DNA from: Amoebidium appalachense
Lineage: Eukaryota; Protista; Ichthyosporea
Direction of reading: 5' to 3'
Assembly: GCA_963693365.1 (NCBI GenBank)
Contig: CAVNZM010000008.1
Location: forward strand, 1,054,001 to 1,118,000
Length of the DNA: 64,000 nt
Part shown: positions 40,096 to 49,330 of the stretch, one piece after another
Numbering within the stretch: the first letter of the stretch is position 1
Layout: the number at the start of each line of letters is the position of its first letter
The notes under the pieces: model-generated
What the model saw: only the letters and a program-made list of their open reading frames with translations
What the model was told of the DNA's origin: nothing
Databases searched by the model: none
Made by a program: the position numbers and the translations under genes

Positions 40096-43000
40096 CTACG
40101 GGGACACCTGTGAGCTATTGTCGCCAGGATTAAAGTCTGAGCGCCACACTGCCATCCTATCAAAGACCTTGCTAGTGGTGGCCATGAGTTTTCTGCTCTG
40201 CGACATATTGAGTTGCTTGTTAGGGTCGGGCTTGCTGGTGCGGGACTGGAGGCCTGCTACAAGTGTGCCTTGGGGTGTGTTGCGCTGTTGTGTTTTTTTT
40301 TTTTTTTTTTTTTTTTGGGGGGGGGGGGGGGGGGGGGGGGGGGGGAGGCAGGGAGGATATGGGTGTGTGTGATTGTGTGATTGTGTGTGTGCGTGTGGGT
40401 GTTTGGGTGGGTGAGAGGTGGGGTGGTGGTATAGATCAGTGAGTATGCATATAACAGACATTTCCTTCGGAGAGCACCAATGACAGAACACATCCCATTA
40501 AGTAATTAGGATGGTGCAAACATTTCGTTGTTCTTTCCGGCAAACAGGGGGGAGTGGGGTTTACAGAAAGGCAAAGAGTGAGATCCAGACAAAAACAGCA
40601 ACTTAGATGTTTTAAGCAATGGGGTTGCATGGGCATGACGATGAAGGACCGTAAAAAATGCGCTAGCGTAGAACATGGATACGGAGGGTGGCTGTTTGGC
40701 CGTGTGGCTGTGTGTGTGTACGTGCATCCATGTGCGTATGGTGTGTGTGGCTTACGGGCGTGTGTGTTGGCGTATATCTGTTTTGAGTGCAAATGCATGC
40801 ATGTGCTCCGTGTGGGAGGCAAGGGGGTGGGAAGGAGGGGGAATTGGTGGCGAGGAGGACTGGGTGGAGAAGAGGAGGGGGGGGAGGAGGAGGGGGGGAA
40901 GGGAAGAAGGATGGGGGAGGAGGGGGGGGGGAAGGGGGGGGGGAAGCACGTACGAACATGGCTGTGCGCATGAGGTTTACGTCAGCGGGGTTGACCCGTG
41001 CTATGATTGCATAGCGACGGATCTCAAAGAATGCAATCACGAGCACGGCAGCACACAGCAGAAAGCCAAGGGTGCCCCAGAGGATGGCTGAGACGGTGTC
41101 CTGGGGGATAAGCATGATCACTCCTACGAGGTAGAAGTACATCACAGTGCACCTGTGTGTGTGCGTGTGTGTGCGTGTGTGTGTGTGTTTGGGGGGGGGG
41201 GGGGGGGGGGGGGTTGTGCGTGTGTGGGTGTGCATGGGATTGTGGGGAGAGGGAAAGCAGGGAGGGGGGGGGGAGGGGGGAGGGGGGAGGGGGGACTTGT
41301 TAGTCCTGTTGCAATAAATGTTGGTGGTGATTTGTGGTGTGCAGCTTGAGTTGTGTGTTGACGTGTGGGTGTGTATGCAGAAATACAGTATTGAACAAAG
41401 GCAAATGAAACCTGGCGTGTATTGGGATAATTGGATAGAACAAAAAAACTACCATAGGCATGGCACACCTCGTGTGCTCATCTGGTTGCTTGCAGATAGG
41501 GTCAACTACCAATAATCCCGTGAATTATGGGCTCGGACGGGCTTTTCCTTGTGTGCGCACGGATATTTTAGACAAGAGCAGTCCTGAAGGTCTGAAGGCA
41601 AGGGGAAAAGGGGGGGGAGGGGGAGGGGGGGAAGGGAGGAGGGGAGGAGGGGGGGGGGGGGGGGGGGGGGGGGGGGGGGTAAAGGGTAAGCATACACAAC
41701 AGCAGTAGACCGATCCATGACTCGTACGTGCCAGCATGTCCAGGGGTCCTCCGCGTTGCAGTCGCTCCTCCGCCACCACACATAGGCCACAAAGGCCTCA
41801 ACAACAATCAGACCACCAAACACCATCGTTAAGATGGAGAGTTGGTCCATGTCTGGGTGGGGGGGAGGTTGAGGGGGGTGGTTAGATGGGTTTGAGTTGG
41901 GGGAGGGTGCGGGGGGAGGGGGGAGGGGGGAGGGAGGAGGAGGGTTAGAAGGATGGGAAGGAGGGGGAGAGGGGGAGAGGATGGGGGTGTGTGGGGGGGG
42001 GGGGGGGGGGGGGGGGGTGCTGATGCACAATCTAGATGGAAAGTGAAACTCAAACATCACCCTGGCATGCACGATGTGGTGCGTGAAAGTGGAGGAGGGA
42101 AATGGATTTGCTTCAGAGTGCATGTTTGGTGCATAATGGTGGTGGTGGTGGGGGGGAGGGGGGGGGGGGGGGGGGGGGGGGGAGGGGGGGAGGAATCCCT
42201 CAATTTGAATTTTGCTGATAGTCTTTCCTCAATGGAATTATGCCTCCCCCCCCCCTCCCCCCCCCCCTTACGGCAACCATACCAGCCTTTCTCTAAACAC
42301 CAACACCATCCGCACTAACCCTTTCTAAAGAACCCCGCACATACCCGTGATCTGGTTCTGGCTCCTTGTCTGGTCTGTCAGCTGCTGGGCCGACACCAAT
42401 GACGTCAACACAGCCACCAGTGCAAACCCCACCCTCGTGTTGACCTGAGCCGCTGCATCGTCATCTAACATGGGAGCCATGCACGTGACAGCACCGACTA
42501 GAACCATCGGGAAGGCAAAGTAGCGCACCACAAACCCGTCGCGACGGTCAAGCGTGATCTCTATGGATAGCCCTCCTACGCCTTGAGCGTGGGGCTGTGG
42601 GGAGGAAAGAAGAGGGAGGCAAGGAGAGAGAGAGGGAAGGTGTGGGTGTGGGTAGGGATGGGGGAGGGGGAAGAGGGGAAGAGGGGGGGGGGGGGGGGAG
42701 GTTAGGCATTTAATAGATGGCGGAACACATGGAAGCGAACAGCTTAGGGAAAAAGCACACGACATTGCTTCAAAAAATCATCAAAAGGGGGGGGGGGGGG
42801 GGGGGGGGGGGGAAAGGCTAAAACAGAGGTCAAAAAAAAGTTGTGCAGGAAAATACCTGAACACGAACTTATCATCAAGGGTTCTCCCATGAATCCACAA
42901 AAGTGTGTGTAGGTGTGTGTTTGCCTTGGGGGGGGGGGGGGGGGGGGGGGGGGGGGGGGGAGGAGGTTTGAATGCGTCATAAAGCACGAAGTACACAAGA

Positions 43001-49000: not shown

Positions 49001-49330
49001 TTTGCTCAAATTAATGTCGTTTGTTGTTTTTTCTTTTTCACTCGGTATGGGTTATATCAAAAAGGGCAACAAACGACCATCTCGAACACAAAGAAACAAA
49101 CAAGAAAAATCCCACAACGTGGCTACAAACACAACCAACACACAACTGCACGTCATGCTATATCTGTAGATGAGTGTAAAAAGAACAAGAAGAGGGGACG
49201 GGCTGGCGGGGAGGGGAGGGGGGGAGGGGGGGAGGGGGGAGGGGGAGGGAGTCCCTGCCACTGCTTCTCGGAATGTTATTGATGATACAAAAACATAGCT
49301 ACAAACTACCAAAATAAAAGCACGAATCAT
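40096..49330 (-). CDS. Pentameric ligand-gated ion channel subunit, Cys-less (Pro-loop) type, ~13 exons
   Basis: Exons approx. 49330-~49255 (donor unresolved), 48888-48758, 48006-47903, 47362-47298, 46755-46632, 45861-45730, 45437-45317, 44655-44413, 43696-43493, 42595-42346, 41852-41696, 41152-40954, 40284-40096. Signal peptide [20 protein letters not shown] motifs [39 protein letters not shown] into M1 (FAFPMVL); M2 [20 protein letters not shown] into M3; VMDR into M4. Confidence 0.82.
42967..43084 (+). mobile_element. Dispersed ~118-bp interspersed repeat, copy 2 (ion-channel gene intron)
   Basis: Matches 20685-20802 with few substitutions; both copies follow a poly-G run. Confidence 0.8.
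48011..48050. repeat. 10-bp tandem repeat (acgtgtgaat)x4 abutting a 3' splice site of the ion-channel gene
   Basis: acgtgtgaat repeated four times next to the acceptor at ~48007. Confidence 0.8.

What the first reader, a model, noticed from the sequence alone, without database searches (positions are those of the whole stretch)
40096..49330. Cys-less pentameric ligand-gated ion channel in an apparently unicellular, chitin-synthase-encoding eukaryote
Seen: spliced exons give WxDPRL, WxP, an FPFD Pro-loop, a pre-M1 Arg and M1-M4 in the correct order. The loop ([24 protein letters not shown]) lacks both Cys-loop cysteines. Established: animal nAChR/GABA-A/GlyR have the C-x13-C loop, whereas prokaryotic GLIC/ELIC and scattered eukaryotic homologues keep only the Pro-loop. 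Inference: this is a strongly diverged, intron-rich (so not a bacterial contaminant) orphan receptor-channel with an unknown ligand. It is relevant to the pre-neuronal origin of fast chemical signalling. The ORF track hides it because exons are short.
Basis: partly seen in the sequence, partly recalled or inferred. Interest (0 to 1): 0.8.

Follow-up and report, generated by a model that had tools for sequence, protein, structure and literature searches.

The report
Five-helix orphan receptor-channel in Amoebidium
A spliced gene of a single-celled relative of animals encodes a very divergent member of the already catalogued cysteine-less branch of the nicotinic/GABA-receptor family, which likely forms a five-subunit ion channel for an unknown outside signal and, unusually, has a predicted fifth membrane helix that would place its tail inside the cell.

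Summary
The gene is real. Spliced contigs join the exons. [quoted passage not shown] Both Cys-loop cysteines are absent. The headline is not new: Jaiteh et al. 2016 described Cys-less protist channels, and their alignment already holds two Sphaeroforma homologues of this protein. What I did not find described: a fifth hydrophobic helix after M4 in 8 of 8 full-length family members (ichthyosporeans and cryptists), twelve clade-conserved extracellular cysteines, long inserts in loops C and E, an aliphatic pore position 6', and loss of the M2-M3 proline in ichthyosporeans. Most likely an orphan ligand- or pH-gated surface channel, not an ancestor of synaptic receptors. The scan noted other Cys-less protist channels on other DNA, but none like this sequence.

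The parts
50156..50237 (-). Exon 1 (coding part): ATG at 50237 and predicted signal peptide, aa 1-27
   Evidence: identity to P0001; hydropathy 2.07 at aa 7-25; contig cover 50154-50500
48758..48888 (-). Exon 2: unconserved N-terminal stretch with three N-glycosylation sequons, pLDDT under 50
47861..48006 (-). Exon 3: start of the Cys-rich N-terminal module (C85, C105)
47299..47362 (-). Exon 4: Cys-rich module (C124, C138) and N-terminal helix
46632..46754 (-). Exon 5: C156 and C161 (invariant in 8 of 8) and strand beta1
45730..45860 (-). Exon 6: beta2, WRDPRL and WRP (loop A)
45317..45437 (-). Exon 7: beta5 and start of the Cys-rich loop-E insert
44413..44655 (-). Exon 8: rest of the insert, beta6, Cys-less Pro-loop FPFD (44496-44485), beta7
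43493..43696 (-). Exon 9: beta8, beta9 and the helical loop-C insert
42345..42594 (-). Exon 10: beta10, pre-M1 Arg432, M1 (Pro444), acidic M1-M2 loop, M2 (Arg469 = 0', Val475 = 6', Leu478 = 9', Arg492 = 23')
41696..41852 (-). Exon 11: M3, short conserved M3-M4 loop with two cysteines, start of M4
40954..41152 (-). Exon 12: rest of M4 and the predicted fifth membrane helix M5 (41094-40999)
   Evidence: (X2 contig joins it to exons 11 and 10)
40096..40284 (-). Exon 13: unconserved, predicted disordered C-terminal tail and stop codon

Best explanation
This is a spliced gene for a Cys-less pentameric ligand-gated ion channel (Pro-loop receptor) subunit of the ichthyosporean Amoebidium, which likely assembles as a pentamer at the cell surface, likely opens its M2 pore in response to an unknown outside cue, and has a predicted fifth membrane helix that would return its tail to the cytoplasm. 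Shown: gene structure, splicing, conserved coupling residues, absence of the Cys-loop cysteines, and an extra hydrophobic segment across the family. Predicted: signal peptide, beta-sandwich plus M1-M4 fold, and M5 as a helix. Inferred: (1) the extracellular domain faces outside and is stabilised by up to six clade-specific disulfides instead of the Cys-loop bond; (2) the signal passes through the Pro-loop, Arg432 and M1 Pro444 to M2, as in GLIC and GABA-A receptors; (3) the ligand is probably not acetylcholine, GABA or glycine, because the aromatic-box positions are not conserved and loops C and E carry long inserts, so pH or an environmental or host-derived small molecule is more likely; (4) slight lean to anion selectivity (about 55%); (5) M5 and the tail serve trafficking or regulation, in place of the large M3-M4 intracellular domain of animal receptors, which is only 17 residues here. 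Membership of the pLGIC superfamily about 0.97; the whole mechanism as stated 0.72.
For: Exons translate exactly to a transcriptome protein and spliced contigs join exons 3-6, 7-9 and 10-12. A profile of 8 family members hits only pLGICs among the 60 best PDB sequences shown, best E 1.6e-9, aligning beta1-loop A, the Pro-loop and pre-M1 to M4. AlphaFold model: mean pLDDT 67, beta-sandwich then helices 435-457, 462-491, 499-527, 535-565 and 571-602. Foldseek best E 1.4e-13 to GABA-A subunits. VIA Z 16.8, rmsd 4.8, 303 aligned; model 145-568 covers GLIC 5-315. In the wide search the first 23 rows are all pLGIC-superfamily chains, and none of them extends past model residue 570. Six of the seven positions of Table 1 in Jaiteh et al. 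2016 are met. A hydrophobic peak (KD 2.06-2.84) follows M4 in 8 of 8 full-length members, with 3-4 K/R in the 15 residues after it. The cryptist model also shows a helix after M4. Pro-to-Ala at the M2-M3 proline leaves GLIC and ELIC active (PMC4778918, passages), so its loss need not disable gating.
Against: No Pfam pLGIC hit for P0001; among 16 relatives scanned only 2 hit Neur_chan_LBD, both under the curated cut-off. A profile of the 5 ichthyosporean sequences alone reaches only E 0.062 against PDB. The models rest on 8 sequences; pLDDT is about 70 for M5 of P0001, 55-61 for the cryptist M5, and 52-67 for the loop-E insert. The profile-profile alignment of the two clades stops at the end of M4, so common origin of M5 is not shown, and M5 identity to P0001 is only 9-33%. 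Position 6' is aliphatic in 8 of 8 and the M2-M3 proline is absent in 5 of 5 ichthyosporeans, which could impair conduction. Three Asp in the M1-M2 loop argue against simple anion selectivity, and Jaiteh et al. say this region does not predict selectivity in protists. All RNA support may come from one sample and the runs are only guessed to be RNA.
Confidence: 0.72

Rival explanations
1. It keeps the pLGIC fold but conducts little or not at all: either a non-gating partner subunit in a heteromer with a paralogue, or a receptor that signals through M5 and its cytoplasmic tail.
For: Extra hydrophobic ring at 6' (V/I/L in 8 of 8), Pro23' lost in 5 of 5 ichthyosporeans, and M5 in 8 of 8. Two paralogous lineages exist in ichthyosporeans, so heteromers are possible. 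The cytoplasmic M3-M4 loop is strongly conserved (47-58% identity) within the clade.
Against: Arg0', Leu9' (7 of 8), the Pro-loop/pre-M1 salt-bridge pair and M1 Pro are all kept. The tail is unconserved (5-16% identity, 16-167 residues), which fits poorly with a dedicated effector. The M2-M3 proline is dispensable in GLIC and ELIC.
Confidence: 0.13
2. It is an ordinary four-helix Cys-less channel, and the segment after M4 is a re-entrant or surface helix, so the tail stays outside.
For: The M4-M5 link is short (about 7 residues). M5 confidence is moderate and M5 is not aligned between the clades. A five-helix prediction for the Alvinella receptor Alpo2 was explained by its authors as a mistaken MX helix (PMC4801368, passages).
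Against: M5 is the most hydrophobic 19-residue window of P0001 (2.5), about 30 residues long in the model, uncharged, and followed by basic residues in 8 of 8. It lies after the conserved M4 Asp545, not in the M3-M4 loop where MX lies.
Confidence: 0.1
3. It is a direct pre-neuronal precursor of animal Cys-loop neurotransmitter receptors.
For: The host is a unicellular holozoan, and the best sequence and fold matches among solved structures are GABA-A, glycine and GLIC chains.
Against: Identity to those chains is only 12-16% and the Z-scores of GLIC, GABA-A and GluCl are tied. The closest non-ichthyosporean relatives found are cryptist proteins (HHalign 99.9%, E 2.8e-35). Jaiteh et al. find a Cys-less clade apart from the Cys-loop clade, and Cys-loop genes in distant protists but not in unicellular opisthokonts. 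I ran no tree with animal sequences.
Confidence: 0.04

Closest known systems
Cys-less eukaryotic Pro-loop receptors of Jaiteh, Taly and Henin 2016 (PMC4795631), in particular Sphaeroforma arctica A0A0L0G465 (= P0003) and A0A0L0FWT9 (= P0005) in their S1 alignment
   Same: Same family: 36% and 33% identity, E 6e-108 and 8e-84. Same Pro-loop without cysteines, same inserts and same fifth hydrophobic segment.
   Different: Amoebidium is a further genus. The paper's main text does not name Sphaeroforma or ichthyosporeans, and the parts I read do not discuss a fifth helix, only C-terminal regions outside the common architecture. The Capsaspora and Chrysochromulina sequences read in S1 keep Thr6' and Pro23' (by eye); this clade does not.
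GLIC (Gloeobacter), ELIC, sTeLIC, DeCLIC: prokaryotic Cys-less pLGICs
   Same: Whole-subunit fold (Z 16.3 for GLIC, 14.6 DeCLIC, 14.3 sTeLIC, 13.2 ELIC), no Cys-loop disulfide, short M3-M4 loop.
   Different: Twelve introns, a Cys-rich N-terminal module, inserts in loops C and E, no Glu at -2'/-1', no Pro23', a fifth helix and a tail; about 14% identity.
Anion-selective Cys-loop receptors (GABA-A, glycine receptor, GluCl, mite pH-gated chloride channel)
   Same: Best profile matches of the membrane part; Arg0', Gly2', Leu9' and the M3 Asp in register.
   Different: No C-x13-C loop, no Pro-Ala-Arg motif (Asn-Thr-Arg here), no large intracellular domain, aromatic binding positions not conserved, five hydrophobic segments.
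Cryptist proteins P0011 (Hemiselmis), P0014 (Goniomonas), P0021 (Rhodomonas), uncharacterised
   Same: Share the Cys-rich N-terminal module, the Pro-loop region, aliphatic 6' and a hydrophobic segment after M4; the P0011 model also matches pLGICs (E 6.5e-14).
   Different: About 20% identity; keep Pro23'; lack the loop-C insert and the two-cysteine M3-M4 loop.

Membership tests
pLGIC / Pro-loop superfamily | [F/Y]PxD motif at the beta6-beta7 tip | tested here: met
   FPFD 320-323; P and D invariant in 8 of 8
pLGIC / Pro-loop superfamily | Pre-M1 Arg and M1 14' Pro, 12 residues apart | tested here: met
   R432 and P444, invariant in 8 of 8; spacing from Jaiteh et al.
pLGIC / Pro-loop superfamily | Aromatic residue at the start of beta9; basic 0' and Leu 9' in M2 | tested here: met
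   F383 (F or W in 8 of 8), R469 (8 of 8), L478 (7 of 8, one Phe)
pLGIC / Pro-loop superfamily | M2-M3 loop proline (88% conserved in Jaiteh Table 1) | tested here: not met
   Arg in P0001, Ala in 4 other ichthyosporeans, Pro in 3 of 3 cryptists; not an absolute feature, and dispensable in GLIC/ELIC
pLGIC / Pro-loop superfamily | Beta-sandwich extracellular domain followed by the M1-M4 bundle | tested here: met
   Predicted model matches whole GLIC and GABA-A subunits, Z 16.8, rmsd 4.8, 303 aligned
pLGIC / Pro-loop superfamily | Exactly four membrane helices with an extracellular C-terminus | tested here: not met
   A fifth hydrophobic helix follows M4 in 8 of 8; its topology is predicted, not measured
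pLGIC / Pro-loop superfamily | Pfam PF02931/PF02932 above the curated cut-off | tested here: not met
   No hit for P0001; P0003 19 bits against a cut-off of 26
pLGIC / Pro-loop superfamily | Pentameric assembly and gated ion conduction | not testable with these tools
   The complex tool takes at most 4 copies and its queue was full; needs experiment
Cys-loop receptors (animal type) | C-x13-C disulfide around the Pro-loop | tested here: not met
   Gly313 and Leu327; no Cys at either position in 8 of 8
Cys-loop receptors (animal type) | GE[K/R] or (P)A[R/K] selectivity motif before M2 | tested here: not met
   Asn-Thr-Arg in P0001; no Glu or Asp at -2'/-1' in 8 of 8
Eukaryotic Cys-less Pro-loop clade (Jaiteh 2016) | Eukaryotic gene, Pro-loop without cysteines, homologous to sequences in the published set | tested here: met
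   12 spliceosomal introns; homologues P0003 and P0005 are in the S1 alignment
Eukaryotic Cys-less Pro-loop clade (Jaiteh 2016) | Placement inside that clade in a superfamily-wide tree | not tested
   My tree held only the 8 family members; the published tree figure was not seen

The most novel reading that the evidence does not exclude
Ichthyosporeans and cryptists share an old, unrecognised five-helix subfamily of pLGICs in which the added M5 brings a tail into the cytoplasm and the pore carries an extra hydrophobic ring, so that the receptor signals mainly through that tail instead of, or besides, passing ions: a naturally non-ionotropic pentameric receptor in the unicellular relatives of animals.
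Probability: 0.1. Interest if true: 0.8.

Novelty: new variant of a known kind. Interest (0 to 1): 0.4.

Why it matters
No protist pLGIC had a known biological role as of Jaiteh et al. 2016. This family is kept in all four ichthyosporean genera hit (Amoebidium, Ichthyophonus, Sphaeroforma, Creolimax), some of them culturable, so it offers a tractable case for asking what these receptors sense in cells without synapses. If M5 really crosses the membrane, it breaks the four-helix rule of the superfamily and shows a second way of adding a cytoplasmic regulatory part. The natural loss of the M2-M3 proline and of the polar 6' ring is a ready-made test of which gating elements are required. It also shows that Pfam-based surveys undercount these channels. 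It says little about the origin of animal neurotransmitter receptors.

Tried and rejected
No whole genome is held for this window, so paralogues in Amoebidium could not be counted. Pfam on 10 single exons and on the whole protein gave no pLGIC hit; phmmer against PDB gave 0 hits. Word-index protein searches with P0001 150-620 and with alignment A3 returned only P0001, although closer relatives exist, so those blanks mean nothing. Pattern scans with alignment A1 found no relative in metagenome, prokaryote-genome or viral contigs (0 of 212, 0 of 52 and 0 of 150 pattern matches confirmed); they reach close relatives only, so a recent bacterial or giant-virus source is unsupported, not excluded. 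Alignment A3 was too diverse for that tool. An inward-facing sensor, as earlier scan notes proposed for signal-less protist pLGICs, was rejected because of the hydrophobic N-terminus, the extracellular cysteines and the sequons; no dedicated signal-peptide predictor was available. A homodimer prediction could not be run because the queue was full. Of the 22 other hits, P0017 (repetitive) and P0020 (Por secretion tail domain) were dropped as unrelated, and 13 short fragments were left out of the counts and the tree; 7 full-length relatives were kept. Run X3 laid nothing. Literature searches for ichthyosporean pLGICs and for a fifth helix found no description; a search on Amoebidium amoebagenesis found nothing.
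Full report
Observation. In 300 block shuffles of the gene region none gave both motif classes on one strand and 72 gave one. Eleven internal exons with canonical ends first gave a 589-residue frame without a stop. A search with exon 8 for longer proteins returned one 679-aa transcriptome protein, P0001, 100% identical, whose accession names Amoebidium parasiticum. 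Thirteen exons from 50237 to 40096, with 12 GT-AG introns of 292-1267 bases, translate to P0001 letter for letter.

Splicing. Contigs of two public runs (guessed to be RNA; one sample, one study) skip the introns: single contigs of X2 join exons 12-11-10 and 9-8-7 and 6-5-4-3. One 2039-base contig of X1 carries exons 11, 10, 8, 7 and 3 at offsets that leave exactly the lengths of the exons between them. The junctions 1-2, 2-3 and 12-13 rest on P0001 alone, and P0001 may derive from the same sample. The exon with the fifth helix is in the same contig as M2-M4.

Host. Amoebidium is an ichthyosporean, a unicellular relative of animals; the review PMC11286789 (passages) notes chitin synthase genes in the group and the release of amoebae. 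The window holds a chitin synthase (PF01644, E 6.8e-11) and ordinary housekeeping genes (6 of 17 pieces had a Pfam hit). Nothing suggests a functional cluster.

Is it a pLGIC? Single-sequence methods fail: no Pfam pLGIC hit and no PDB hit. An exhaustive phmmer search gave 23 proteins at E up to 0.001: P0001, four full-length ichthyosporean homologues (Ichthyophonus, Creolimax, two from Sphaeroforma; 32-39% identity), three cryptist proteins (24-27%), 13 fragments and 2 unrelated hits. A profile of the 8 full-length proteins hits only pLGICs among the 60 PDB sequences shown, best E 1.6e-9; the 5 ichthyosporean sequences alone reach only E 0.062. The language-model search gave 0.93-0.94 to eukaryotic Neur_chan clusters, and the Atlas model of P0003 matched Neur_chan_LBD clusters by structure. 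The AlphaFold model (pLDDT 67, pTM 0.57, 8 sequences) shows a beta-sandwich and helices 435-457, 462-491, 499-527, 535-565 and 571-602. Foldseek gives E 1.4e-13 to GABA-A subunits. VIA gives Z 16.8 (rmsd 4.8, 303 aligned), residues 145-568 covering GLIC 5-315. In the search of 48,161 representatives the first 23 rows are all superfamily members. Six of the seven most conserved positions listed by Jaiteh et al. are met, and both Cys-loop cysteines are absent in 8 of 8.

What departs from the textbook subunit. (a) A fifth hydrophobic segment follows M4 in 8 of 8 full-length members, with 3-4 basic residues after it. No solved pLGIC aligns to it: the pLGIC rows all end by model residue 572. The cryptist model also has a helix there, at low confidence, and matches pLGICs. 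With a signal peptide, five passes put the C-terminus inside; this is inferred. The local profile alignment between the two clades ends at M4, so one origin of M5 is not shown. One Chrysochromulina sequence seen in the Jaiteh alignment also has hydrophobic stretches after M4 (by eye), so such extensions may be more widespread; I read only 3 of the 201 parts of that file. (b) Twelve extracellular cysteines are kept in every ichthyosporean sequence that covers them (4 of 4 for the first four, 5 of 5 for the rest), three of them in 8 of 8. (c) The loop-C region is 26-30 residues in 5 of 5 ichthyosporeans against 4-5 in 3 of 3 cryptists, and the region before beta6 holds a 45-49-residue Cys-rich insert; loop names follow my recalled knowledge of the fold. 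(d) Pore position 6' is V, I or L in 8 of 8, there is no acidic residue at -2'/-1', and the M2-M3 proline is lost in 5 of 5 ichthyosporeans but kept in 3 of 3 cryptists. (e) The positions that form the aromatic box in animal receptors (numbering recalled, placed relative to conserved Trp and Pro anchors) are not conserved aromatics. (f) The M3-M4 loop is 17 residues and 47-58% identical within the clade, with two cysteines.

Mechanism. Most likely a surface pentamer in which an outside cue moves the Pro-loop/Arg432/M1-proline interface and opens an M2 pore gated at Leu9', as in GLIC and GABA-A receptors (established knowledge, applied by inference). Loss of the M2-M3 proline need not block this: P246A in GLIC and P254A in ELIC activate like wild type (PMC4778918, passages), although the position is implicated in gating (PMC13552759, abstract). 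The ligand is probably not a classical neurotransmitter. pH or an environmental or host cue is my guess; the review notes that Ichthyophonus changes form with pH, which is context only. Selectivity leans slightly to anions (best membrane-domain matches, Arg0', no Glu) but three Asp lie at the inner mouth, and Jaiteh et al. warn that this site is not predictive in protists. PMC9874803 (first of three parts) argues cation selectivity for schistosome Cys-less channels from a Glu at -2', which is absent here.

Evolution. In a tree of the 8 proteins the ichthyosporean and cryptist groups separate at 100/100, and Amoebidium pairs with Ichthyophonus (92/91, unstarred), with two paralogous lineages in Sphaeroforma; the tool warns of long branches and the tree has no outgroup. 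This fits inheritance within ichthyosporeans, with either old common ancestry or transfer behind the cryptist link; I cannot tell which.

What is known. Jaiteh, Taly and Henin 2016 (PMC4795631; I read the abstract, Results parts 1-2 of 3, Discussion parts 1-2 of 3, keyword passages, a search of the three supplements and three parts of S1) describe Cys-less pLGICs in many protists, including Monosiga and Capsaspora. Their S1 alignment contains A0A0L0G465 and A0A0L0FWT9, which are P0003 and P0005. PMC11085791 (passages) confirms Cys-less pLGICs in diatoms. Searches for ichthyosporean pLGICs and for a fifth helix found no description, apart from a five-helix prediction for Alpo2 that its authors put down to the MX helix (PMC4801368, passages). 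The library lacks most subscription journals, and bioRxiv supplements were closed, so the absence is provisional. The scan's own notes hold 20 findings on Cys-less pLGICs in other genomes, none similar in sequence, none near this place and none with a fifth helix.

Verdict. A real, spliced, very divergent Cys-less Pro-loop receptor; family already catalogued; the predicted five-helix, disulfide-rich architecture looks undescribed. New variant of a known kind, interest 0.4.

Noticed in passing
   Followed up: partly
window about 18900-29107 (+), 32568-32786 (-), 10766-10903 (+), 268-405 (-): Exons of a cullin, a DREV methyltransferase, a XendoU endoribonuclease and a beta-ketoacyl synthase: ordinary neighbours.
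   Followed up: partly
window 52183-57036 (+): Multi-pass membrane protein, by eye an MFS-type transporter, head to head with the channel gene about 2 kb away; no Pfam hit at E 0.01 on three single pieces.
   Followed up: no
window 8649-9047 (-): Short open stretches with a signal-peptide-like start and several regularly spaced cysteines; no Pfam hit on the Cys-rich piece. Possibly a small secreted protein.
   Followed up: no
window about 43030-43080, 43400-43430, 43790-44130, 47150-47240: Intronic stretches with very high contig depth in the runs and many loose ends; three of them share a short similar motif by eye. Probably interspersed repeats.
   Followed up: no
window 50154-50500 and beyond: Exon 1 lies on a separate 733-base contig of about twice the depth of the gene body that runs past 50500: a long 5' untranslated region or an overlapping transcript; contig depth is a poor measure.
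   Followed up: no
P0006 (Ichthyophonus hoferi record): A second Ichthyophonus fragment covering M3 to M5 at 41% identity to P0001, so that species has at least two family members.
   Followed up: partly
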